Source: Azolla caroliniana (Eukaryota > Plantae > Polypodiophyta). Taken from it: a stretch of 64,000 nt of DNA. Positions 3,886-64,000 of the stretch are shown piece after piece (the first letter of the stretch is position 1; every line of letters begins with the position of its first letter). The position numbers and the translations under genes were made by a program. The notes beneath the pieces are model-generated. The model saw nothing but the letters and a program-made list of their open reading frames with translations. It searched no databases and was not told the origin of the DNA. The stretch lies in NCBI GenBank assembly GCA_043228905.1, contig JBHGNT010000002.1:9610001-9674000 (forward strand), given 5' to 3'.

Positions 3886-4604
3886 GAGTATGACGATGTC
3901 GTGAAGATTTTCGGCAACGATGTCAAAATTGCATGGAATGTACAAAATCAAGTGTGGTTCTTCACACACAATATGAAACAATAATAGTGAAGATACTATT
4001 TTATATTAGTTTAATATCTAACAAAAAGATGGATGTCTTCAACAGCTTCCGAATGCACTTTAATACTACATTTGAAATAGACAACTAAATGTCAAGTTAT
4101 GTGAGTGTGAAGTTTGAGAAGAAGAAGAGAAAAACAAAACTTTGAGATATCCCACATAGATAGGACAAATCAGGATCCCACATTATATAAGTAGAGCCAG
4201 AACTTATTACTTTTTGTCTATGTGTGGAGCACAGAATGTTCAAGGTGACTTGGGCCAAACTATTCGGATGGATGGATGTGGCTTAACTACTCGTAATGGT
4301 TTTGGAGAACGAGATTGGATGGACGGCGACAGAACCAAAACTGGAACCGAACCAGACAGAATGCAGATTGGATGCGGATCGAACTGGTCGGGATAGACGT
4401 GACCGGATCGGATCGGTCGGGTCGGTTGGATATGTTCATTGCAACACACAGTGTCTTGAAGATTTCTGTGTGAAACGAACAAGAAAATAAAAACAAATCG
4501 TCTATAGGTTCTGTCGGGTCATTGGAGGTCGACTGAAGGTGTAATATGCAGTTAAACATTTGTAAAATACAAGACTAAAGCCTAGTAATATTTTGTGCAT
4601 TGAA

Positions 4605-4675
4605 TGGGATGCAAGCAAGGCTTGAACCTTGCACCTCCAAGAAAGGAGGCAATTAACTTACCACTAAGCCAGGTC
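4605..4675 (-). mobile_element. tRNA-derived SINE-like head (Pol III A and B boxes)
   Basis: Minus strand: A box TGGCTTAGTGG (4661-4671) and B box GGTTCAAGCC (4619-4628) at tRNA-like spacing; no complete cloverleaf. Confidence 0.5.
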
Positions 4676-6923
4676 ATTTCTTTAAGTTATATTTTTATCA
4701 TTATATTTCTCATACATGAGAGGTTGAATGACTAACATGGTTATCATGCAACACATGCAATGCATGAGCACCAAATGGCAAACATGTATCACATGCATTT
4801 CATGCATGTCTTACACCCTCACATGCATCATATGCATGGGAGCATCTATAAAAGAGTGGATGAAAAAGAAAAACGGGGCTATGTATTAATCAAGAAATTT
4901 AAAAAAAGAAAAAGAAAAATCGTTATCCAATTGGTGATGTATTAATCTTGTTTCTCTAATATAAAGTTAAGGGTTCAATCTTAATCTCCCTCTCTCTCCA
5001 TCTCAGTCTTTCTCTCGCCATATCAATCTCTCTCAATCTCTCTTAAATAGTTTCTCGTTAAAGCTAGTACAAACTTCGAATCCTTCTGGTCTAGGACCCT
5101 GATGGTTCCACCTCACGATCCGCACATAGTGACGGATTTTCAGGACAACGTGAATACGAAGGTGTCCATACAAATTAGGGTTTCCTACCTGGAATCTGAT
5201 CAGGACATCTTCTTGGACAACATGGCTACGGGTTGTCTGCGTGTTGTTGTTGTGGTAGTTGTGGATGCTGTGTGCTATCTATCTGTTGCGTGGTCACTAC
5301 GGTGGTGGTCACTCGACGGTGAAACTACGCTATGGTGGTGGTCACTCTCGTCTCTCTTTCTTGTGTTCTATCATGCTCTCCTCTCTCGTGTTCTCTTTCA
5401 CGCTCTATGGGGAAAAAAGAAAAAGCACGGCTATATACGACACAAAAAATTAGGAGAGGTTAGTTAAAAATTGACTATAGTTAGTTATATAGTTAGTTAG
5501 TTAGATAGTTTGTTGACCACTAGGTTAGTTACATAGTTACATACATACTTATATAGCTATAAGTAGATATAGTTATAATTACATAGTTACATACTTAATT
5601 ATATACTTATAATTACATATAGTTATAATGTAAATATATATATATATATGATTATATATATTTAATATGATATTTTTATAATTGTATTTTTAAATTTATA
5701 GGTTTGTGTAGTGCTCACTTATATTGTACAAGAGCACCTCATTTGAACAACAGTGAATCGTTTGAGAGGATCTTTCGAGTTTGAGAGAATGAACCATAAC
5801 TCACCATTTTCAATGTATGTGTAGAAGAGATCCAAATGGCAAGCCCTATGCATTTTAGGAGGGTTACACATCGAAACAACCGAGATAGGTTTGCCCTTTG
5901 ACATTAGAGAACCAACTCAGTGTAGATGTTGACAAAGATTGTTGTGCACGTGGGTGCATGTTTGCTATTGGAAAGGATAAGTTGCGGTCATTAAGGCGAT
6001 ACTATTTCTCACTCATTGGTGATGAGCAAGACACTTATCTTATGATACACATGCAGATGGTGAAAGACATATTGTCGGATATCAAGATCTCATTTGAGTA
6101 TTATATCTTCTATGGACTACAATGTTATAGAGTTGCATTCAAGATTTCGTTATGTGTTTGCAACTTGAGATTACATCGAGTGCAACAACGAGTTCTCAAT
6201 GGTGATCTTAGTATCGATCGAGGTGATATTCCAAGTATGAAGAGTGCATCCGGAAGAAATGAAATCAGTTGGATGAAGAACTACTTCAACCTTAACTGTG
6301 AAGTAATGCAAAATACCGGTAGGTTGCATCTTTTAGATAATTACACACGACGAGAAGTGTATGATGCCTACAGATCAGATATGTTAATGTCAAGTGATAA
6401 ATATGTCACCTACAGTTAGTTCACAAGATTATGGTCAACACGATTCACTTATGTTGTCATACCTATGAAAGTACGCATGGGGTATTGTTCTATTTGTGCA
6501 AACCTGAAGAGCTTGACTAAAGGTGCCAAAACAACAAAGCAGAAGGACATCAATAAACATTTGTTACAGGACCATCAAGAAGCGCAAGCATTGGAGTGGA
6601 AAAAAATGATGCACCATAGAGAGAAGTCGTCGAGCAAACCAGAGCAATATATGTGTCTAATGATTAATAGTGTGGACCAGAAGAAGATGTGTCTACCTCA
6701 GTTTAGGAGGCTTCCGAAAGACGTCAACGACGAATGTCTCGTTCAGATGCACTTGGTGGATTGTTTGGCTTATAATGGGACAGTTAAACCTCACGTCTTC
6801 ATTACTTACCCGAATGTCCACAACGACCCCAACCTAACACTTACTATGATTCAAAGGGTTCTAATGAATTGGGGGCACCCATTTCCCCATGTTCTCTACA
6901 TTCAATTGGACAACATTGCTAGG

Positions 6924-7821
6924 TGACGGGAACCCAATGCTTCTTATGCACAACGCTCGGCCACAACCGAGATTCTTTTCATACACAGGAAACAAGAAAC
7001 GAAAACACACGACACAAAGGAGAGAAAAGGGTACACAGAATGTTTACGTGGAAAACCCAAAAAAGGGGAAAAACCATGGCAGCCCACAGGCTGCAAACTA
7101 TCACTAAGTTGGACTGTACAAAACAGTGAGTTCATGAAGGCAACAACCTCATGCTCACGATCTTCGCCACAGGCGGCGGTTACAACAGAGGCAACGACCT
7201 CTTTCTCTCTCTCTCTCTGTACACTGTTACGTGCTCTCTCTTCTTCTTGCACCAACAAGAAAAATGACAACCACAACTAAAAGTTTGCCCTAAGTCATAT
7301 TTATAATAATATGACTTTTCGGCTATTTACAAATATAGCCTCGATGGGCTCTCAGAAACATATTTATGGTTCACACCGGGCCTGCACCATCCGGCTCTCC
7401 GTAGCCGGATACTGCTCATCCGGTTCACACCGGGCTTGTATCATCTGGCTCTCCGTAGCCGGGTACTCCTCATCCGGTTCACACCGGGCCTGTATCATCC
7501 GGCTCTCCGTAGCCGGGTACTCCTCATCCGGTCTTCACCGGGACTGTATCATCTAGCTCTCCGTAGCCGGGTACTCCTCATCCGGTCTTCACCGGGACTG
7601 TATCATCCGGCTCTCCGTAGCTGGGTACTCCTCATCCAGTCCTCACCGAGTCTGTATCATCCGGCTCTCCGTAGCCGGGTACTCCTCATCCGGTCCTCAC
7701 CGGGTCTGTATCATCCGGCTCTCCGTAGCCGGGTACTCCTCATACCGTTTTGGCCTCGGCCGAGTTTGTTCGTCGGCACTGTTCTTCTCCCTTCCCATCC
7801 GGAGGGACCTGTCTCCCAACA
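6924..7821 (-). mobile_element. Solo LTR related to the Tork-like Copia family, TSD CTAGG
   Basis: TG...CA ends; CTAGG at 6919-6923 and 7822-7826. The minus-strand start TGTTGGGAGACAGGTCCCTCCGGATGGGA resembles the LTR at 18349. Removing it restores QLDNIAR-ENKN. Confidence 0.92.
7370..7745. repeat. 54-bp tandem array (about 7 units) in the LTR U3
   Basis: Unit CCGGCTCTCCGTAGCCGGGTACTCCTCATCCGGT...TGTATCAT; CCGTAG recurs at 7561 and 7615. Confidence 0.9.
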
Positions 7822-17317: not shown

Positions 17318-17741
17318 TGTCAGGAATAGTACTAAAGCAGAGATGGAATTAGTACTAAGAAGAGTCGTACTATTAGTACTAAGAGGATGGGACTGCGTAA
17401 GATTCCCGAGAGAGAGGAAGTAAGAAGAGGAGAGAGAGAGATAGGATGATGACAACAACTCTTATATTATATGAAAGATAAGTACAAATCGGCTAAGAGG
17501 CTTAAGACTGGTGTTGAACCAATTTGGTTCAAAACAATCCCTTGTGCCTCCTTTTATAGTGTTTTTAGGAATAATCCTGAAGCTTCTAGAATGTTCCAGA
17601 GAGATCTGGAATATACATCAATTTTCTATGATAAAGCATAAATGAAAATAATATCTTACAAATTACAATTCATAGTCTAATGGTAAGAGCTTGACCCATG
17701 TAGCATAAGGTCATGGGTTCGAGTCTTGCCATATCATGACA
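17318..17741 (-). repeat. 3' LTR of chromovirus A
   Basis: TG...CA, adjacent to the PPT, direct repeat of 27632-28055. Confidence 0.95.
17665..17741 (+). promoter_or_regulatory. tRNA-like Pol III A/B-box cassette in the chromovirus LTR (also 27980-28055 + and 34679-34755 -)
   Basis: A box TAGTCTAATGG (17673-17683) and B box GGTTCGAGTC (17716-17725) at tRNA spacing; stems are degenerate, so it is not a tRNA gene. Confidence 0.65.
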
Positions 17742-17752
17742 CTATCTCCCCC

Positions 17753-18343
17753 TTAAAGACGACGAGTGGAACGAGTCGGTGCTAATTGTGGACCGGGTTT
17801 GTCCGGATACTTTCGGTGGAAATCAGCAAGAAGATCTTGTGCATTGGCAACATGCTCGACGGGTTCCCAAGTACGTTCGCTCGGACTATAACCGAGCCAA
17901 TCGACCAAGCAATAAAGTTTGTTGCGAACAAGTTTGGAATCGAGGATGGCAACAACTTCATAGTCTGGGCCAGCGTCCAACTCTAGCGGGGGCGACGGTG
18001 GTGTCACACGATCGGGAATGGTGTTTGCTTTATAAGGTTCAAGAAGAGAACAATGGAAAACCGGATGTATTTGAAGCTGCAGAGGGAGATCAAGGCGGAA
18101 GGTGACATCATTAATCTTACCCGTAATACGGAAAGGACCGAGTCGTCGATAATCCAACTTGTCGCACGGTCGAGTAGTCTTGATGTGACGACGTAAGAGC
18201 CATACTCGATCTCCGATGGCAAAAGAGGAGGGAATCCGATGACGATCTGCATAAGTCTTCTGTGTGTGTTGAGCATGACGAAGGTGAGTAGAGAGATCCA
18301 TCTAGATCTTGCGTAGCCTCTCCAAATGATCCTCGGCACGAGG
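17753..18343 (-). pseudogene. pol: Integrase C-terminus (GPF motif) and chromodomain of chromovirus A pol
   Basis: LGPFRI, IHPVFHCSLLEP and DYEVVAILDSK...LVDWLGYSPSERTWEP; cut off from the rest of pol by the Copia insertion. Confidence 0.9.
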
Positions 18344-23928: not shown

Positions 23929-26409
23929 TAGGTAGCTCCGGAGTGTCGATCACCGACTAGCGAGGATGGAAACCGGTATAAGCAAAAAATGGGGAGACCC
24001 GAGTCAAGGAGTGAATAGCATTATTATACGCAAACTCCGCAAAGTGGAGAATCTCGGCCCAATCGTCCCATTGATAACTCAGGAAACACCGGAGATATTG
24101 CTCCAACGTTTGGTTTGTTCGTTCCGCCTGCTCGTCGGTCTGAGGATGGTAGCCGGAGGAGAGGTTGCAGGAGACCTTGAGCATGTTGAAGAGATGCTGC
24201 CAAAATTTGGAGACAAACTGCGGACCTCGGTCACTGATAATACTGTCTGGGAGGCCATGATGCCGAAATACCTCACGCATAACAAGAGCGGTGGTTTCCT
24301 CGCTAGTGATGGCTTTAGTACATGGCACAAAATGTGCCATCTTCGTATATCGATCGACGACGGTTAGGATAGCATCGAACCCCTTCGAGACCGGCAGATC
24401 TGTGATAAAATCAAGACAAATAGACTGCCATGGCTTACTTGGAATCGGTAAGGGTTCCAACAAGCCATATGGATGGTGTCGTGGCATCTTTGCTCGGCAG
24501 CAAGCATCACAGGTCTGAACGTAGTCGTCGACAAAAAGGCGCATGTGGGGCCACCAAAAAGATCGTTGCACTAGCTCCAACGTCTTAGTACTACCGAAAT
24601 GTCCCGCCATATGGGTGTCGTGACAATGTTGGACGATTTGAAGGCGACAGGAGCAATCAGGGACATACACGCGCTTTTTAAAGAATAACAAACCATCATG
24701 ATATTCGAATTGTCGGTAGTCAATACCTGGTTGTTGAGACTGAGAACAGGATGCCCGAGAAGTATCAATGTGTGCCAGGATGTCTTGAGATAAACTATCC
24801 GTCTTCAAGGTTGCACGTATGTCATCGGTAATCCATGAATCCATCGGGGTGTGAAAAATCCGCATCGTGTGCAATCGTGTTGGTCCCAAGATTACTTGCT
24901 TTTGATTATCAAATGTTGCGTCACCAGGACGAGGTGCAAGAATTGAATGCCGTGATAGTGCATATGCTTTTCCTTGCTGCTTCCCTGGTCGATATGTGAT
25001 TTTGAAGTCGAAACGCGTGAGGAATTGCGCCCACCGAGCTTGCCGTTGATTTAGTACGCGAGCGTTCTGAAAATAAGCAAGATTTTTATGATCGCTAAAG
25101 ACAATGACCTGATGTGGAGAGCCCTCTAAGAAATGCCGCCATTGTACAAATGAATCCACGATGGCTAATAACTCCTTGTCATGTATTTCGTAGTTGATTT
25201 CTATGACATCGAATTTGCGCAAATGGAAAGCCACCGGATGCAACTCTTCTTTATCGCCTTGTTGAGAAAGGATGCTACCGAGGGCGAAATGTGATGCGTC
25301 GGCCTCCATGATGAATGGTTTGCTTGTATCCACATGAGCTAGAATCGGTGCTGATGTAAAGGCTTTCTTAAGATGCCGAAAAGCCATATCTGCTTCTATG
25401 GACCAAAGAAATGCTTGGCCCTTCTTCGTAAGTTGTGCGAGAGGTAAAATAATCTTCGAGTAATCATGTATAAACTTATGGTAGAAGTTAGCAAAACCTA
25501 GAAAACATTGTACATCTCGTACCGACCGTGGAATTTGCCACTCTAGTACATTTTGGATTTTAGCTGGATCCATGGCGATGCCCTTTGAGGAGATGACGTA
25601 GCCTAGAAAATCCACTTGCTTGCAGTCAAAGCTACATTTTTCGAGCTTGGCATAAAGACCATTCTCGCGGAGTCTCTTTAGTACTAATAGTACATGAGAA
25701 TCGTGCTCTTCCTGGGTCTTCGAATAAATCAATAGATCATCCAGATAAATGATCAAACAGATATCCAAGAGGTCTCTGAATATATGATTTGCCATGTGTT
25801 GGAAGACTGCGGGTGCATTGGTTAGGCCAAACGGCATAACAGTATACTCGAAATGCCCATACCGCGTGCGAAAGGTGGTCTTCCACTCATCTCCCGATCG
25901 GATCCGCATGAGGTTATACGCTCCTCGTAGGTCGATTTTAGTAAAAAAGTTGGCACCATTAACTCGCTCTAAAAGACTTGATATAAGAGGAAGTGCATAC
26001 TTATTCCGGATGGTGACTTTATTCAATCCGCGGTAATCAACGACAAGACGAAGTGATATTACACACACAAAACTACCTAGGACAACTTGAATGGGTTCTG
26101 ATTCTTCTACAATATTCCCGGAAGCAATGGGACGACCATCAATGACTACTACAGATGTGGGACAAGGAAGTTTTCTTAAGGATATCTGAGAAGCTTGGAC
26201 AAAATTTCGATCCATGAAACAGGAATTAGCTCCGGAATCTAAAAGTGCTAGGACGGGTTCTGGGGGAGTACTTTTAGTACTAACAATGACTTGGGCTAGG
26301 AACACATTGCTAACTTGCTTGGAAGGAATGGAACCACTAATGGGCTGTACAAATCTAGGGTTGCTGTCCAACAAACGACTCCTATTTTGGTTGGACTCAA
26401 TCGTTTAAC
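23929..26409 (-). pseudogene. pol: Pol of chromovirus A (PR, RT, RNaseH, integrase) with an in-frame deletion of about 0.5 kb
   Basis: LLDSGA, MPFGLTNAP, YLDD, DAS, HX6H/CXXC and ISDRG. The protease joins directly to LRLVVDYRG, lacking the segment present in copy B at about 36670-37170. Confidence 0.92.
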
Positions 26410-27555
26410 TCTTCATCTAATTGACTAAGGATTTCAAATTTATCTTGAGATACTTGGGCTATTAGTACTATGAATACTATCAAACACTCTATTAGTACTA
26501 TTAATACTATCAGACACTCCTAAGGGAAGAATTGACTCGGGTTTAGTACAGGCTACAATTTGATTTACCTGTCTTCTTGGCCTATGGGGACAATTGATTG
26601 CGATATGCCCTGGTCCACCGCAATAAAGACATAATCGATTTGCACGTCGTCGTTGCTTTTCTTCTTCCGATAACGGGCCGCGTCGACGCATGGTATCGAT
26701 CTCCATCGGTGTCGAAGTATTTGCTTGAGGTATGTCTCGTGCAAACGGTCTAGCCGTGACTGCGGCGTAAGTGGGCTCCGGCCTAGCGCGTGGTATCTGT
26801 AATTGACATTCCGAACGCCGTTCGAAGAGGCGGTTGTCACATCGGACCGCTCGACTTATTGCCTCCGTAAGAGACTTTGGTTCTTCGGGGAAGGTTAGAA
26901 GTAGATCTTTGACATCATTTCGCAGGCCATAGAGAAACTGCTCCATTAGTGCTTGATCATCCCAGGGTATGTCGGAAGCGAGTAGGCGGAAATCCGCCGC
27001 GTAGGCAGAGGCTGGACGATCGCCTTGACGCAATCGCCGGATCTTGTTGATCGCCGTCCTGATGTTGTCGGTGTCTCCAAAGCAGGCTTTGAACTGACTA
27101 ATAAAATCTTCAAAGTTATTAAGCAAGGGCGATTGTTTTTCTAGAAGCGGAGCGAACCATGCTAAAGCTGAGCCGCTAAGCAACGTGCCTATTAAGCCGA
27201 CTCGGGATGCATCAATGGGGTATCGGGAAGGATGCATTTGGAGGACTAATCGTACCTGATTAAGGAATCCCCTGAATTGCGATCGCGTTCCATCGAATTT
27301 CACAGGAAGTCCAATCTTCGGCTCTTTATGAAATCCTTGGGGACTTGATCCTTGTTGTTGCAATGCCGCTTCGAGTTGTTGCACCCGTAACGCTAACTAC
27401 CCATGTTGTTGCTGTGTTTGTTGCTTTTCTAGAGCGATTTGTTGCAGATCCCCTATCAGCCGTTGGTTTTCTTGTTCCAGGGCAACAAACTTTTCTTTTA
27501 GGCACTGTAACTCGGAGAAAACGGATTGATATTCTTGGGCGCTAACAGTAGCCAT
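26397..27555 (-). pseudogene. gag: Gag of chromovirus A (retrotransposon gag plus CCHC knuckle), with premature stops
   Basis: ATG at 27555 (MATVSAQEY), KFDGTRSQFRGF, LRQG and CLYCGGPGHIAINC; ends ...ELND-stop; in-frame stops near 27397 and 26440. Confidence 0.88.
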
Positions 27556-27631
27556 AGTAGAGGGAAAAGGGTAGGAGGATGAGGGAGAACGATAACTAGG
27601 CTGGAGGAAAGAGGAAGAAATTGGTTCAAAC

Positions 27632-28055
27632 TGTAAGGAATAGTACTAAAGCAGAGATGGAATTAGTACTAAGAAGAGTAGTACTATTAGTACTAAGAGG
27701 ACGGGACTGCGTAAGATTCCCGAGAGAGAGGAAGTGAGAAGAGGAGAGAGAGAGATAGGATGATGACAACAACTCTTATATTATATGAAAGATAAGTACA
27801 AATCGGCTAAGAGGCTTAAGACTGGTGTTGAACCAATTTCGTTCAAAACAATGCCTTGTGCCTCCTTTTATAGTGTTTTTAGGAATAATCCTGAAGCTTC
27901 TAGAATGTTCCAGAGAGATTTGGAATATACATCAATTTTCTATGATAAAGCATAAATGAAAATAGTATCCTACAAATTACAACTCATAGTCTAATGGTAA
28001 GAGCTCGACCCATGTAGCATAAGGTCATGGGTTCGAGTCTTGCTATATCATGACA
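27632..28055 (-). repeat. 5' LTR of chromovirus A
   Basis: Direct repeat of 17318-17741; TATA on the minus strand at 27866-27872. Confidence 0.95.
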
Positions 28056-33202: not shown

Positions 33203-35198
33203 CCGTGCAAGGAACCAAGGAGACAGTATATGCACAAGGAAAAGGGGAGGATGAAGATGCCGAAGTACGACATAGATAAAGGTATGTCAGATCACGGAGA
33301 ATTTGACACCAACCGAAGTGAAGATGGACCTCAAGAGTTGAGATCCAATGTGGCCAAGAGGGCCCTCAAATCGGTGAATGAGAAGCTACACCGATCTACT
33401 CACCACAAGAAACCGGTGATCCGGTATGGTTATAACGAGTACATGGCGCACACTTATGCATACATGACAAAAGTGGCGAAAGTCTGCGAGCCGGAGAGCT
33501 ATGCGGAGGCATCACAGGATGTCAAATGGTGTACGGCCATGGAGGAAGAAATGCAAGCACTTGATGCCAACGACACATGGGACCTAGTTGACCTTCCCCG
33601 ACACTGCAAATTTATTAGATGTAAATGGGTATATAAGGTGAAATATAATGCTGACGGCTCGGTCAACCGGTAGAAGGCCTGATTGGTGGCCAAGAGATAT
33701 GCACAGACCCATGGAATCGATTATGACGAGACCTTCGCACCGATGGCTAAGATGACGATGGTTCGTGTGGTGTTGGCAGTCACAGTGGCAAGGGGCTGGC
33801 ATCTCCACTAGATGGACGTAAAGAACATGTTTCTTCAAGGAGATGTTGACTAACAAGTATACAAGGTCCAGCCACCCGGATTTCAGTTGGAGGTGAACAA
33901 GTCGGTAGTATGTCGACTAAAGAAGTCACTTTATGGCCTCAAGCAAGCCCTTGTGGTTGGAACTCAAAAATCACCCATCAATTGCGTAAGATCAGGTTTG
34001 TGGCCTCGAAAACTGACTCTTCTCTGTTCATCTGGAAAGGTCCGAAGGGTCTAGTGTGCATATTGCTCTATGTGGATGACTTGGTTGTCACCAGACCCGA
34101 CCTTACTGAAATCGGCCAAGTAAAGTCTCCGTTGTCGGAGGCATTCAAGATGAAAGACCTAGGAGACCTTCACTACTTCCTCAGAATCAAAGTGATCCAC
34201 ACTCTTGAAGGAATATTGCTATCTCAGTGACATTATGTGTTGAATATGTGGTACAAATTTGGTATGAAGGATTGTCGATCCGTCTCTACTCCCCTCGACA
34301 GAAGCTTGAAGCTACATCTCGACTCGGGAGCGGCCTGCGATGAAAAATGGTTCCGACAAATGGTTGGAAGCCTTATTTACTTAACTATCACTCGACCCGA
34401 CCTTAGCTTTCTGGTCGGGGTGATTAGTCAGTTCATGTAGAGATCGACTGTTGAGCACCTTTAGTGCGTGCACCGAATCTTGCGATATGTGAGCGGCACG
34501 ACATGTTTACTCTCGGAAGCACGGTTGTAGCGTGGAGTAGCAAGACACAACCGAAAACGGCCCTATCAAGCACTAAGGCTGAGTATAGAGATGTTGGCAG
34601 CCTTGGACGGCCAAGTGGGAAAGTTCAAGAAGGAGAAAAAACTAAGGGACGGTTATGGCAAGCGAAGAAGACGGGTGGTGTCATGATATGGCAAGACTCA
34701 AACCCATTACCTTATGTTACATGGGTTGACCTCTTGACCATTAGACTATATGTTGTTATACAAAAAATATTATTTTCATTTAAGTTTTACTATAGAAAAT
34801 TTATGTATATTCCAAATTTCTCTGGAACATTCTAGAAACTTTAGGAGTACTCCTGAGAACACTATAAAAGGAGGCACAAGGCATTATTTTGAACCAAATA
34901 GGTTCAACGTCAGTCTTAAGCCTCCTAGCTACTATTGTATATTCTCTTAACATAATATATATCTTTTGTTATCATCATTCTCTTTCTCTCCCTCTCTCTC
35001 TCTCACTGAATCTTTCCTTCTCTCGAGAGTTGTACACCACCCTTAGTACTAATCCTCCTCTTTTAGTACTAATTCCTCCGTTGTCTTGGTACTGCTCCTG
35101 ACAGTTTGAACCGATTTTGTCTCATTCCTTCTCTTCCTTTATCTTCTTACTTCTCCCTCCCTTCATACTAAACTGTTATTCCTCTTTTCTCTCATACT

Positions 35199-39732: not shown

Positions 39733-39946
39733 TGTCATACGAAAGATATTATTTTCATTTAAATTTTACTACAGAAAATTGATGTATATTCCACATTTCT
39801 CTACAACATTCTAGAAACTTCAGGAGTACTCCTGAGAACACTATAAAAGGAAGCATTATTTCAAACCAAATCGGTTCAATGCCAGTCTTAAGCCTCCTAA
39901 CTACTATTGTATATTCTCTTAACATAATATATATCTTTTGTTATCA

Positions 39947-39977
<31 letters not shown>

Positions 39978-40397
39978 TACTCTTTCCTTCTCTCGAGAGT
40001 TCTACACCTCCCTTAGTACTAATCCTCATCTTTTAGTACTAATTCCTTCTCTGTCTTAGTATTGTTCCTGACAATACTTCTCTGTCTTAGTACTGCTCCT
40101 GACAGATGGGGCCGTAGCATAGTAAAGAGGGAGTAACAGTCGTAGTGTAGTTAATGAAAGTAACGGTTCACACGCCGAGCATAGGCACCCATGACCCTGT
40201 ATATAAAGGGCATGGAAAACTTGTAAAAAGGGAGCAATAATTTTGTGTTCAAAGTCTAAAATATAGTTTCTTATTGCCTGACTCTCTGTGTTCTCGTACC
40301 TATTCGTGCCGAGTTTATTTTCTCTATGTTGAGCCATATACGTTGTGTGTGCTAGGGCGTAAGAAGTCGGTTGTAGTCGTCTTCCTAATCTCCAACA

Positions 40398-59681: not shown

Positions 59682-61723
59682 ATGGGGAATAGTGTCATCA
59701 AATTCTTGATAATCCTGAGTTCGAGTTCAAACTCCAAACAGATGGAGTACTCTGAGCATGAACGCAGATGTAGCCCCCGCAACAACACAAAAACTCTGAG
59801 ATCGACATTGCACCTTCAGAGCTACAACACACGAGTAAGTCGATCCTCGTCCAGGTATGTATCAGTTACATATTAAAAAAACTTTTTTTTCCCTTTCTGA
59901 TAACTGTCTGTAACCTTGGTGCTTGTTCATCTTTCCCAAAAATCGAATAGGGCGAAGTCGTTGGAGTCCCAAACAAGGATGTCTCGAAGATCAGGGTGTA
60001 GCTACAGGTGTGTTTCTGATTGACAGAATTTCGTAGTAAGGTTGATTTCTGCCTTTATTGATGATTAGGGTTTGTGTTTCCCTTAAGTGGTTTAGGGTTT
60101 CTAATTACAAATTTCAGATTACAAGTTTCTGGTTACAAATTTCAGATTACTGTCGCAATGTGTTGTAATTTTGCACCAATTCTCATGACAAATTCTGATT
60201 AGGGTTTTTGATTTTTTAAGTGGTTGATTTCTGATACATGTTGAAAAGGACATATTGCAAATTTTAGATTACTGTCTCAAAGTGTTGTAATTTTGCACCA
60301 AATTCACATTAAAAATTCTATTTTTGCACCAATTATGATTACTGATTTTCAATTTCAGGTGGCTCGTTCCTCCCTATCCTAGAGTGCTGAAGTTCACAAA
60401 ATTTTGCGAGACAAAGGAGGACTTTCACAACATATATGGTCTGTTGCTCGAGGGTATTGACCCTGCTGTTCTAATAGATAGATTGATTAGTGATGTAGAT
60501 TGGATGTCAGTACATAAAGTGCCTAGAGTGAAAGGCAAGGTCAAGCTCAAGCATGTACGACCGGGCTTGTACGACGACTGCATGAGACTGCACCAGAAAG
60601 TACATCAAGAGATCCTGGTCAACAACGAGTTGTCCGTTTCATTTGCCAGAGCTTTTGCATACGAGTATTGCAAAACAACGAAGGAATCTCGTGACCCTGA
60701 AATGTACAGGGTAGCTTGGGCAATTTATGGTGAGGCATCGGTAGAAAGATGTCAGAAGATGGGGAGCTTGCAACAAAAAATGGCAAGATTTTGGAGCATG
60801 GCAGTTGATGATGCAGCTGCCGACTCCCAACAAACCCACAAGTATACGCCACACCGACACACAATGAAAGCCAATGTCGATGATATAGGTGAGATATTGA
60901 TTAGCTATATGCTAAAAAATGTCCATGAAGCCTGTGAGACATTGGGGTTTTTTAAGACCGATTTAGAGAAAGCAACATTGGCTGGTGCGATGGAGAGCAA
61001 AGTCACTTTGGTAGTTACAACAATAAGAAATAAGGTGGCAGGTACCTATTGTTTTGCTAGTATGTAATATGTTATAAATAACTTGTACATGAAAATGTGC
61101 TACTGAGGCATTATCTAGAACAGGTTGCTCAATATGAACTTGAAATTGAGGGGTTGTTGGATCCCCAACGGAAAATTCAACTACAGACAGAGATCCAGGT
61201 TCTTTTAATGAACATGGACCTTCTAGGTGTAAATACTATCGCTGATTACAATTTGGAAAAGCTACAAGTAAGTTAATGATTCTTGTTTCTTGTTGTTGTA
61301 TCTTCCTCATTAAGGAATTATTAATCAGTAAATTTCTCAGCTGCATTGAAGGAACAATACTCCCGTCAAGAACAGGTAGTTAGTTGCCTTAAGAAGCAAC
61401 TACATATTGCGGAGGGGATGGTAAGGAGCAAAAAACAATTGGACCTGAACATTCTTGCTCCCTTACCAAATGAAGGAGAACCAGGAAACGATATTTTGAC
61501 TGTTCAAGCACGTTGCATCGCTTGTAGATTATGTGTAGAGGACAAATCTGCTACTCTATTGGTTCACCTAAAACCATACCAGTACACATACCATATCGTT
61601 TGTTTTCAATATGCCTGTAGCATTGCCGCATTCTGTTTGGGGGATTGTAGTACAACTCTCCCAGATGAGTGGAGAAAACACATAGGTAAAATTGCTGCTT
61701 GTGACCATAGTGTAGCTAATTAG
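59682..61723 (+). CDS. Spliced unknown protein with coiled coil and degenerate RING-like C-terminus. Exons about 59682-59854, 59951-60007, 60359-61034/61041, 61119/61124-61267, 61341-61723
   Basis: The first three introns are GT-AG with compatible phases; the last junction needs a weaker donor or a frameshift. C-terminus CIAC...YHIVC...CLGDC. Confidence 0.55.
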
Positions 61724-61969
61724 TTCCATCTTTGCTAATTAGGTAAGCTGTATAAAGTGTGGAAACTATTTAGCTATTATGATTGTAGTGTAGTAGCTAA
61801 TTACCTAACATGTAGTTAATTAGCTAAGTGGTAGCTAATTAGCTACTACCATAGTTTAGCTGAGTAGCTAATTAGCTAAGTGGTAGCCAATTAGCTACTA
61901 CCATAGTTTAGTACAGTAGCTAATTAGCTAAATGGTAGCTAATTAGCTACTACCATAGTTTAGCGGATA

Positions 61970-64000
61970 TTATATGGTCATGCTTGTAATAGCAGGATAC
62001 CTCCCCACAAAATAAAGTGGACATCTAGCCTTGAATTGTGACGCAGCTCCATTAGACCAGACCCAATGCTGAGTAAGCTCCAAATGTTTAGCTAATAACC
62101 ATTGCCAATGTAAGTTAAAACAATGTTGGACGAACAAGGTATCATGCTTCTTATCATCAGAAATAAAAAAATGAATTACTTTTTTAACATCACCTGAAAC
62201 TCGAAAATATGTTATGTGCACAAAAATGGTTACCTGCGCTAAACACCAATGCATAGATTGAATTTCATTATGTTGCTTGAAAGTATAATTCTCTGTGAAA
62301 TCTACTACTGAGACTACTACGTCATTTGGAAAATCAGATATGCAAGTCTTAAATTGACGGGCTTGCCATGAATAAATGAAGTTGTGTTTAATGAACTTTC
62401 CTAGAGATACTACAAATAGAGACGCCAAATCCCTTGGTTTAAGCGACTTCCTAACTACATCCTTTCTTTTACACACCTTTCCTTCGAAATTGGTGTCAAC
62501 TAACTCAAATAACTTGATAGAGATTACTATTTCACTACTCAATTCATTTGGACACCACCTAAATCTACTAGGGTCACAATCTTGACATAAACCCATGACA
62601 CATTTATGATTGTGGAAGACGGCCTCAGTTTTTGTCGGACACAATACTGAATCTAAAAGACAACTCATGGAAGAGATAACATGCTCAGATCATTTACAAT
62701 GCTCATGCGGGCTCGATCGACAAATTGGGCACACACAAGTGCAAATTGCATTTGTTAGGGAGGCGCTATGGTGACGTAGTAGATTAACAGAGTCCATGAG
62801 AAACCCATTTGTACATGGTAAATGCAACAACATGTGTATCGATCCTTCAAGCGTCTCACAAAGTGTGGCTTAATAGACTTGAATGTTCGTAGTTGAACTT
62901 TGATATTTGGATGCATTCGTCTAAACCTAATAAATAAATCGACCTATGTAATAAAATGGACATACTGATTAACTCTATGGCTAAGTGATAGCTAATTAAC
63001 TACTACCATAATTTAGTATAGTAGTTAATTAGTTAACTGGTAGCTAATTAGCTACTACCATACTTTAGTTATAGTGGCTAATTAGCTAGTGCCATACTTT
63101 AGCTGAGTCGTTCATTAGCTAACTGGTAGCTAATTACCTAGTACCATACTTTAGTTGAGTAGCTAATTAGCTAAGTGGTAGCTAATTAGCTACTACCATA
63201 CTTCAACTGAGTAGCTAATTAGTTAAATGGTAGCTAATTAGCTACTACCATACTTTAGTACAATAGCTAGATAGTTAACTGGTAGCTAATTAGCTACTAC
63301 CATATTTTAGTTAGAGTGGCTAATTAGCTACTACCATACTTTAGCTGAGTCACTAATTAGCTAACTAGTAGCTAATTAGCTACTACCGTACTTTAGCCGA
63401 GTAGCTAATTAGCTAAGTGGTAGCTAATTAGGTACTACCATACTTTAGTTGAGTAGCTAATTATCTAAGTGGTAGCTAATTAGCTACTACCATACTTTAG
63501 TTATAGTGGCTAATTAGCTACTACCATAGTTTAGTACAATAGCTATTCAAGTAAGGGATTAACAATTCTAGTAGCTAATTAGCTATAGTCATAAGCAACT
63601 AATTAGCTACTCTTGTAGCTAATTAGCTATTGTGGTAGCTAAATAGCTATGAATGGTAGTTAATTAGTTATTCTAGTAGCTAAATAGCTATGTTCGATAT
63701 ACTTAGGGAGCTAATTAGCTATTACTGGTAGCTAGTTAGCTATGTTCATATTTGAGGTAGGTAATTAGCTATTCCGGTATGGTCATATTCAGAGGTAGCT
63801 AATAAGCTAACTAACTAAGCTCAAAAGTCGAAACAAATGTTGAGATAAATGTAAATACCTGAGGTACATCAAGAAGATGAATAGGATGCTCCTTGTATTG
63901 ACTCCTTCCAACACGTTTCCTGCATAAATCCTTCTTATTGGGTGAAACCCTACTCTCATTAGTCTAAAATATTTTGATTATATCCTTGATTTCTGATGTT
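61970..64000 (-). pseudogene. Sola2-like transposase pseudogene; exons 64000-63859 and 62943-61970, intron 62944-63858
   Basis: SRVSPNKKD...; HPNIKV...KPHFV...CCCIYH; DFTENY...EIQSMHW; ISDDKKHD; WSNGAASQFK. Stops and a frameshift near 62800; the C-terminal part is missing. Confidence 0.75.
62980..63820. repeat. Satellite-like array with palindromic core TAGCTAATTAGCTA
   Basis: Many copies of TAGCTAATTAGCTACTACCATACTTTAG.. and TAGCTAATTAGCTAAGTGG; also present at 61770-61965. Confidence 0.93.

What the first reader, a model, noticed from the sequence alone, without database searches (positions are those of the whole stretch)
17665..17741. Chromovirus LTRs begin with an outward-facing tRNA-like Pol III cassette
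Seen: the first ~75 nt of U3 read, antisense to the element, TAGTCTAATGGTAAGAGC...GGTTCGAGTC, an A box and a B box 43 nt apart as in tRNA genes. It occurs in both LTRs of copy A (17673/17716 and 27987/28030) and in the 5' LTR of diverged copy B (34695-34748, minus), so it is part of the family LTR. Known: Cassandra TRIMs carry Pol III 5S sequence in their LTRs, and B boxes recruit TFIIIC and can act as chromatin barriers. Inference: a coding chromovirus family may carry a Pol III or TFIIIC module that insulates its promoter or makes antisense or read-out RNA. I do not know whether this is already described.
Basis: partly seen in the sequence, partly recalled or inferred. Interest (0 to 1): 0.8.

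Follow-up and report, generated by a model that had tools for sequence, protein, structure and literature searches.

The report
tRNA-gene boxes beside retrotransposon promoters
Two unrelated lineages of protein-coding jumping genes in what is likely a moss genome carry, in thousands of end-repeats, the two promoter boxes of a tRNA gene pointing away from their own promoter, and these boxes likely recruit the tRNA-gene machinery to keep that promoter open inside silenced chromatin, a role not yet tested.

Summary
The stretch is the start of U3 in the 3' LTR of a self-priming, Tcn1-like chromovirus. It holds an antisense tRNA-type A box and B box scoring like this genome's tRNA genes (29 bits; shuffle maximum 16), but it is not a tRNA. 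The boxes persist in relatives down to about 50% protein identity while the sequence around them diverges. An A+B pattern has 3,190 hits genome-wide against 0 for the control. A second, non-homologous lineage (Phygy-like) carries the same antisense boxes; two of its families carry two, plus a sense copy beyond the TATA box. Copia (0 of 20) and an outgroup chromovirus (0 of 19) have none. The B box is near-invariant, the A box drifts, and neither terminator nor fold is conserved, so a DNA-level TFIIIC platform shielding the Pol II promoter is my best reading (0.5). No binding or RNA data exist. 'Outward-facing' holds only at the 5' LTR. Closest in print: Helenus/Cassandra (non-coding) and foamy-virus U3 cassettes. 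The scan noted a similar chromovirus LTR in a fungal-like genome (e1-10420520).

The parts
17673..17684 (+). A box of the tRNA-type cassette, 3' LTR of copy A (antisense to the element)
17716..17726 (+). B box, 3' LTR of copy A; 15 nt from the LTR start
   Evidence: 1 change in 646 positions over 59 protein-picked copies
17681..17733 (+). Imperfect long hairpin spanning the cassette; limited to the close subclade
17318..17741 (-). 3' LTR of copy A (424 bp, TG...CA)
17551..17559 (-). TATA-like box of the predicted Pol II promoter (3' LTR), 113 nt from the A box
   Evidence: mismatch rate 0.004 among 59 copies
17742..17756 (-). Polypurine tract
17753..18301 (-). Integrase C-terminus: SH3 and chromodomain with aromatic-cage Y, W, Y
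   Evidence: cage residues as described in PMC3350952
18349..23930 (+). Nested Ty1/copia element (approximate ends); its LTR has no cassette
23957..27396 (-). gag and pol of copy A
27618..27631 (-). Primer-binding site, complementary (13 nt) to the LTR's own sequence rather than to a tRNA
27826..27839 (-). Predicted self-primer at the predicted RNA start, about 30 nt after the TATA box
27865..27873 (-). TATA-like box, 5' LTR of copy A
27987..28040 (+). A box to B box cassette in the 5' LTR of copy A (faces out of the element)
27632..28055 (-). 5' LTR of copy A
34679..35103 (+). 5' LTR of copy B with the cassette on the minus strand (34695-34748; 24.3 bits)
39733..40073 (+). 3' LTR of copy B, cassette deleted
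3897..5147 (+). Solo LTR of the second (Phygy-like) lineage, flanks ACGA/ACGT
4619..4671 (-). Antisense A/B cassette in that LTR (24.4 bits), 174 nt before its TATA-like box

Best explanation
The first 75 nt of this LTR are a tRNA-gene-type A/B-box cassette kept across two unrelated retrotransposon lineages, and it likely works as DNA: a binding platform for TFIIIC that likely shields and opens the element's own Pol II promoter in heterochromatin. Shown by sequence: the boxes, their tRNA-like spacing, their antisense orientation, their place 110-200 nt upstream of the TATA box, their conservation, and their presence in both LTRs so that every new copy inherits them. Inferred: TFIIIC binds the B box and loads TFIIIB (with TBP) on the side facing the TATA box. 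Inferred from yeast tDNA barriers: this keeps a nucleosome-poor gap, stops silencing marks spreading in from the flank and blocks read-through into the promoter. Some Pol III transcription may occur as a by-product, but the RNA is predicted not to be the selected product. The elements themselves would still be copied from Pol II RNA.
For: Conservation sits on the boxes. In 18 family representatives (17 besides the window copy, 16 of them not picked by the motif) mean column identity is 0.66 for the A-box core and 0.65 for the B box, against 0.45 between the boxes, 0.40 in the rest of U3 and 0.31 after the B box. In 59 close LTR copies mismatch rates are A 0.020, B 0.042, TATA 0.004, self-primer 0.044, against 0.091 for mid U3 and 0.134 for R/U5. 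The B box is stricter than the A box: 1 change in 646 B-box positions over 59 protein-picked copies, while four A-box variants have amplified (28, 16, 10 and 1 of 55 classified). One family keeps only a clear B box (20 of 28 scored Chromo-picked loci). That fits B-box-dominated TFIIIC binding (recalled). No RNA feature is kept: first T4 after the B box lies 29 to 1027 nt away or is absent (10 copies), and the long hairpin is limited to 5 of 17 folded representatives. Convergence: the Phygy-like lineage shares 26-33% RT identity and no LTR similarity beyond the boxes yet has the same antisense cassette 154-201 nt before its TATA box; L203 and L205 carry two antisense copies plus a sense copy after the TATA box, all facing away from the promoter. 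Loss does not spread: 2,833 intact LTR starts against 5 distinct deletions among 22 hits (20 inspected), each with its own junction. Precedent: tDNA barriers need TFIIIC and Pol III (PMC2040200, abstract); TFIIIC sites block Pol II read-through (PMC4228148, abstract). The moss chromovirus RLG1 sits in heterochromatic islands yet is transcribed unstressed (PMC7466625, passages).
Against: No binding, chromatin or RNA data. The CpG in the B box is not shown to be protected from decay: 1 of 118 against 12 of 584, p = 0.71. The fission-yeast barrier is independent of orientation (PMC2040200, abstract), yet the U3 cassettes here were antisense in every family seen, which an RNA-level role would also explain. 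The variable-loop word AAGGTC (0.60) and a T-stem of 4 of 5 pairs in 9 of 17 representatives are kept, and the segment after the A box pairs better with its own B-box segment than with others (permutation p = 0.003 for 10 Tcn1-like families; 0.19 for 5 Phygy-like cassettes), which hints at some structural constraint. An abundant outgroup chromovirus (0 of 19) and copia (0 of 20) amplify without it. Rare deletions could reflect the neighbouring integrase site, and no control deletion elsewhere in the LTR was counted.
Confidence: 0.5

Rival explanations
1. The cassette is a working Pol III gene whose RNA is the point: antisense RNA into the integrase end from the 3' LTR, read-out RNA into the flank from the 5' LTR, or a hairpin precursor of small RNAs as in foamy-virus U3.
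For: Both boxes, tRNA-like spacing (43-44 nt) and an A/T-rich leader are kept. The window copy folds at z about -4.9. Foamy viruses encode Pol III miRNA cassettes with A and B boxes in U3 (PMC3993851, passages).
Against: No conserved terminator; at the 5' LTR the 3' end would depend on random flank. The hairpin is absent from most distant families. The A box drifts.
Confidence: 0.18
2. The selected function is on the element's own RNA: U3 carries the complement of a tRNA's D and T arms and captures a host tRNA for dimerisation, packaging or strand transfer, like the 3' half of the Ty3 bipartite primer site.
For: It explains the strict antisense orientation in U3. In Ty3 the T and D arms of the primer tRNA pair with U3 (PMC5371799, passages). 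The longest words shared with a host tRNA are 10-16 nt.
Against: The Tcn1-like lineage is self-primed (4 of 5 elements have a 12-13 nt LTR complement). The Phygy-like primer is tRNA-Trp but Trp is the best duplex partner for 0 of 5 of its antisense cassettes, and no single isotype is favoured among 14 classes. Sense copies beyond the TATA box do not fit. The tRNA set is incomplete.
Confidence: 0.14
3. It is a neutral relic of a SINE or tRNA pseudogene that landed in an ancestral LTR and is carried along.
For: tRNA ancestry is visible: the L201 inter-box matches tRNA-Arg(TCT) better than 200 of 200 shuffles. Kojima proposes SINE insertion as the origin of Helenus. Old copies lose the boxes (L263, L272, L277, L181).
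Against: Boxes are kept while the sequence between and around them is replaced, in two non-homologous LTR lineages, and duplicated in the same orientation in L203 and L205.
Confidence: 0.08
4. The cassette is a landing pad or decoy that draws Pol III-targeting elements to insert upstream of it.
For: Ty3-type targeting is known.
Against: 30 of 30 pattern-picked loci run on as family LTR for at least 160 nt upstream of the A box.
Confidence: 0.05
5. The two boxes are a chance by-product of an inverted repeat near the LTR end.
For: In the window copy the two boxes lie on opposite arms of one hairpin.
Against: The boxes persist where the hairpin does not; scores exceed all 390 shuffles; reversed control 0 against 3,190.
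Confidence: 0.02

Closest known systems
Helenus / TRIMp3 (Kojima 2024, PMC10886601; parts 1-4 of 6 and passages read)
   Same: tRNA-derived sequence in both LTRs, conserved around boxes A and B, not a functional tRNA, not the primer.
   Different: Helenus is non-coding and 311-1263 bp, and the cassette is proposed as its own promoter. Here the elements are 5-8 kb with gag-pol, have a separate TATA box, and the cassette is antisense. The paper says autonomous partners must use Pol II; it also notes that 'not a few' Repbase LTRs hold tRNA-like sequence but analyses only TRIMs.
Cassandra TRIM (as described in PMC10886601 and PMC12786077, passages)
   Same: A Pol III promoter inside a plant LTR.
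   Different: 5S type, non-coding, drives the element's own RNA and has terminators; none of these holds here.
Foamy-virus U3 Pol III miRNA cassettes (Kincaid 2014, PMC3993851, passages)
   Same: A/B-box units in U3 of an autonomous retroelement whose genome is made by Pol II.
   Different: They have defined terminators and stem-loops that yield miRNAs; here neither is conserved, and orientation is antisense.
tDNA and extra-TFIIIC chromatin barriers (PMC2040200 and PMC4228148, abstracts; B2 SINE boundaries, PMC8136502, abstract)
   Same: What it most likely works like: B-box-bound TFIIIC limiting heterochromatin or Pol II read-through.
   Different: Those are host loci or SINEs; here the module is built into a coding element's promoter and moves with it. 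Activity untested.
Tcn1 clade / Physcomitrium RLG1 and Phygy (Neumann 2019, PMC6317226; Novikova 2010, PMC2864245; Vendrell-Mir 2020, PMC7466625; passages)
   Same: The carriers: chromodomain with aromatic cage, self-priming, fungal Tf2-like relatives; and a chromodomain-less gypsy with NCGN target sites.
   Different: The passages seen do not describe Pol III boxes in the LTRs ('polymerase III' occurs 0 times in PMC2864245 and PMC7466625). Whether RLG1 itself has the cassette was not tested.
Ty3 bipartite primer-binding site (PMC5371799, passages)
   Same: U3 sequence complementary to tRNA D and T arms.
   Different: Ty3 matches its own primer tRNA; here one lineage has no tRNA primer and the other does not match its primer.

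Membership tests
tRNA gene | Cloverleaf fold, detected by ARAGORN or Rfam RF00005 | tested here: not met
   no cassette hit in 10 further loci
Type 2 Pol III promoter | A box and B box at tRNA-like spacing | tested here: met
   29.2 bits, 43 nt
Type 2 Pol III promoter | T-run terminator close downstream | tested here: not met
   no T4 in 703 nt for the window copy; 29-1027 nt in 9 others
Type 2 Pol III promoter | TFIIIC binding and Pol III transcription | not testable with these tools
   no raw RNA reads were available
Helenus / TRIMp3 | tRNA-derived sequence in both LTRs, conserved at boxes A and B | tested here: met
Helenus / TRIMp3 | Short and non-coding (TRIM) | tested here: not met
   gag-pol present; many family copies with a 1,194-aa open frame
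Helenus / TRIMp3 | Cassette placed to transcribe the element itself | tested here: not met
   antisense to gag-pol, with a separate TATA box and self-primer
Cassandra | 5S rRNA-derived LTR sequence | tested here: not met
   no 5S match in Rfam
SINE | Free-standing copies outside LTRs | tested here: not met
   30 of 30 pattern-picked loci lie in family LTR sequence; one further locus, L211, is unassigned; about 3,150 sites not inspected
Tcn1 chromovirus clade | Chromodomain with aromatic cage | tested here: met
   PF00385; Y, W, Y in the translation (residues)
Tcn1 chromovirus clade | Self-priming site instead of a tRNA site | tested here: met
   12-13 nt complement in 4 of 5 elements, 7 nt in copy B
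Tcn1 chromovirus clade | RT-RH-INT tree placement with reference Tcn1 elements | not tested
   no reference set on hand; named homologues are fungal Tf2-like proteins
Phygy non-chromovirus clade (second lineage) | No chromodomain; NCGN target site | tested here: met
   4-bp NCGN duplication in 4 of 4 elements; feature from PMC6317226
Phygy non-chromovirus clade (second lineage) | Tree placement with reference Phygy elements | not tested
   no reference set on hand
Chromatin barrier | Blocks spread of silencing | tested here: inconclusive
   only an indirect CpG-decay test, p = 0.71

The most novel reading that the evidence does not exclude
Self-insulating LTRs: two unrelated coding retrotransposon lineages independently built a tRNA-gene barrier into their promoter, in some families on both sides of the TATA box, so that every new copy stays transcribable in heterochromatin and thousands of mobile TFIIIC sites shape the host's chromatin map.
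Probability: 0.35. Interest if true: 0.85.

Novelty: new variant of a known kind. Interest (0 to 1): 0.66.

Why it matters
Chromoviruses are thought to aim at heterochromatin, yet the moss element RLG1 is transcribed in unstressed tissue (PMC7466625). A built-in TFIIIC platform would be a simple, protein-free way to escape silencing, and it can be tested with a few base changes in a reporter. Pol III promoters in LTRs were known for non-coding miniatures; finding them antisense beside the Pol II promoter of coding elements, twice, points to a different use. At over 3,000 sites against a few hundred tRNA genes typical for a moss (432 in PMC3729371), these boxes could be the main TFIIIC-binding class in the genome.

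Tried and rejected
tRNA gene: rejected. Cassette as the element's primer: rejected, the primer site pairs with the LTR's own predicted RNA start. Long hairpin as the conserved feature: rejected beyond the close subclade. Shared origin of the two lineages' LTRs: no alignment above shuffles for the inter-box or upstream segments; one whole-LTR score (37 against shuffle maximum 34, L205) is explained by the boxes. RNA evidence: no RNA holder listed; four contig sets laid on the 5' LTR give no strand or start. Viral contigs: no relative. CpG-protection test: too few events. The control count (343) is not a chance rate, probably because the reversed pattern matches a repeat, and was not used. Of the 22 hits, 20 were inspected: 6 are deleted LTR starts (5 distinct events, L376 being identical to copy B), 10 are internal matches in intact or truncated LTRs, 4 are unrelated. 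In one search, 46 of 147 loci were dropped before scoring because no PPT/LTR start was found or the contig ended; these include copy B's 3' LTR and 32 of 50 metagenome loci. L127 was scored on the wrong repeat. In one search the A-to-TATA gaps for L151 and L170 are mis-picked and not used. The earlier-findings search by sequence found nothing.

Full report
OBSERVATION. The stretch 17665-17741 is the start of U3 in the 3' LTR of a minus-strand Ty3/gypsy element: LTRs 17318-17741 and 27632-28055, 97% identical, target duplication TATGG, gag, RT, RNase H, integrase, SH3 and chromodomain, split by a nested copia. The cassette reads on the plus strand, antisense to the element, so it faces outward at the 5' LTR and inward at the 3' LTR. 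Copy B has it in its 5' LTR and has lost it from its 3' LTR. It is not a tRNA: ARAGORN and Rfam find none and it folds as one hairpin.

MORE THAN CHANCE. An A+B pattern has 3,190 exact matches in the 523-Mb genome and the reversed pattern 0. I trained a weight matrix on 11 tRNA classes from this genome, several of organellar look. The cassette scores 29.2 bits; real tRNAs 16-34 (not held out); 390 shuffled LTR starts at most 16.0.

THE CARRIER. The primer-binding site is not tRNA-like. It is a 12-13 nt complement of the LTR's own sequence about 30 nt after the TATA box in 4 of 5 elements. The chromodomain keeps the aromatic cage. Named homologues are fungal Tf2-like proteins. These are the marks of the Tcn1 clade of mosses and club-mosses (PMC6317226, passages). 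Hundreds of close copies exist, many with a 1,194-aa open frame. The host is likely a moss: this is my inference from Tcn1-like and Phygy-like elements occurring together.

CONSERVATION WITHOUT MOTIF BIAS. I took elements found by protein similarity and read the LTR that follows (101 of 147 loci scored, 46 dropped for lack of a readable LTR start). Among metagenome relatives of at least 52% identity, 11 of 14 score 23 bits or more (six of them one family); L162 has a clear B box but fails the matrix, L165 and L181 score 14.5 and 11. In this genome a family at 62% identity scores 22.6 in 29 of 30 copies. Among 28 Chromo-picked loci at 44-59%, 5 score 24-28, 20 belong to a family with a clear B box only (9-16 bits) and 3 are deleted or decayed. 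An outgroup chromovirus at 29-40% has none (0 of 19), nor do four distant metagenome loci at 35-37%, nor 20 copia regions from at least three families. Across 18 representatives the A-box core and B box have column identity 0.66 and 0.65, against 0.45 between them and 0.40 in the rest of U3 (three decayed copies included). Among 59 close copies the boxes are as constant as the self-primer.

A SECOND LINEAGE. Of 30 pattern-picked loci, 30 lie in LTR sequence, and 14 belong to a different gypsy lineage. It has no chromodomain, a tRNA-Trp primer site, 4-bp NCGN target duplications in 4 of 4 elements and 26-33% RT identity to copy A, which fits Phygy. Its LTRs share nothing with the Tcn1-like LTR beyond the boxes. 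Its cassettes are again antisense, in both LTRs, 154-201 nt before the TATA box; in the Tcn1-like families the gap is 113-198 nt. L203 and L205 have two antisense cassettes and a sense one after the TATA box. The window holds a solo LTR of this lineage at 3897-5147.

WHAT IS AND IS NOT KEPT. The B box shows 1 change in 646 positions over 59 of 60 protein-picked copies, while four A-box variants have amplified. There is no fixed terminator. The long hairpin is confined to 5 of 17 folded representatives, though a weaker self-pairing signal remains (p = 0.003, 10 families; control segment p = 0.54). No single tRNA isotype explains the cassettes; only L201 traces clearly to tRNA-Arg(TCT). Intact LTR starts number 2,833; five different deletions were seen, none amplified.

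MECHANISM. The pattern fits a DNA platform for TFIIIC better than an RNA product: strict B box, looser A box, free 3' end, fixed side and rough distance from the TATA box, and bracketing in two Phygy-like families. By analogy with yeast (PMC2040200 and PMC4228148, abstracts) it would keep the promoter open and stop silencing or read-through from the flank. This step is inference (0.5). Against it: the CpG test is empty (p = 0.71), the yeast barrier ignores orientation, and cassette-free lineages also amplify. Rivals are a Pol III RNA (0.18), capture of a host tRNA by the element RNA as in Ty3 (0.14; PMC5371799), a neutral SINE relic (0.08), a landing pad (0.05; 0 of 30 loci interrupted within 160 nt) and chance (0.02).

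COMPARISON AND NOVELTY. It works most like a tDNA or extra-TFIIIC barrier and looks most like Helenus, but it fails Helenus membership: coding, long, antisense (PMC10886601). Foamy viruses have Pol III units in U3 but with terminators and miRNA hairpins. Ten library searches and passages of the Tcn1, RLG1, LTR-structure and plant host-factor papers showed no description of antisense A/B boxes in coding plant LTRs. That is limited: subscription papers, Repbase notes and all supplements were not seen, and Kojima remarks that many Repbase LTRs hold tRNA-like pieces. The scan itself noted tRNA-type boxes in chromovirus LTRs of a fungal-like genome (e1-10420520, e1-10420559), read there as landing pads; I tested that reading here and found no support. 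Verdict: a real, selected, convergent LTR module; new variant of a known kind; interest 0.66.

Noticed in passing
window 3897-5147 (+): Solo LTR of the Phygy-like lineage with its own antisense A/B cassette at 4619-4671.
   Followed up: yes
L203 6978-7845; L205 about 5370-6930: Phygy-like LTRs with two antisense cassettes before the TATA box and a sense cassette after it (24.5 and 17.7 bits), bracketing the promoter.
   Followed up: partly
L251-L274 family, LTR start: The B box sits 5 nt from the LTR end as the loop of a perfect 8-bp hairpin that includes the terminal TGTCA; the A box is weak or shifted.
   Followed up: partly
L153, L159, L205, L219, between cassette and TATA box: Tandem TTCTAGAA-type palindromes fill the gap between the cassette and the TATA box; they resemble heat-shock elements (recalled motif).
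   Followed up: no
L161 553-626 and 832-905: Two real tRNA genes (Rfam 68 and 65 bits) lie 160-500 nt from a chromovirus integrase fragment in a metagenome contig.
   Followed up: no
L211 about 4610-4665: An A/B cassette (23.7 bits) with no similarity to the four LTR references; possibly a SINE or a further family, near LINE-like frames.
   Followed up: partly
L031, L048, L049, G000:C8:17.80-17.82 Mb, C16:4.99-5.11 Mb: Nuclear tRNA genes occur in tandem arrays of one isotype (Lys, Ile, Arg, Trp), many with decayed copies.
   Followed up: no
window 40074-40105: The last 30 or so bases of copy B's 3' LTR are duplicated in tandem before the likely target-site copy.
   Followed up: no
window 61720-63770: A palindromic satellite built from TAGCTAAT-type units, period about 52 nt.
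   Followed up: no
L279-L298, copia LTR starts: Three copia families start their LTR with a short inverted repeat (TGTTGAG...CTCAAC).
   Followed up: no
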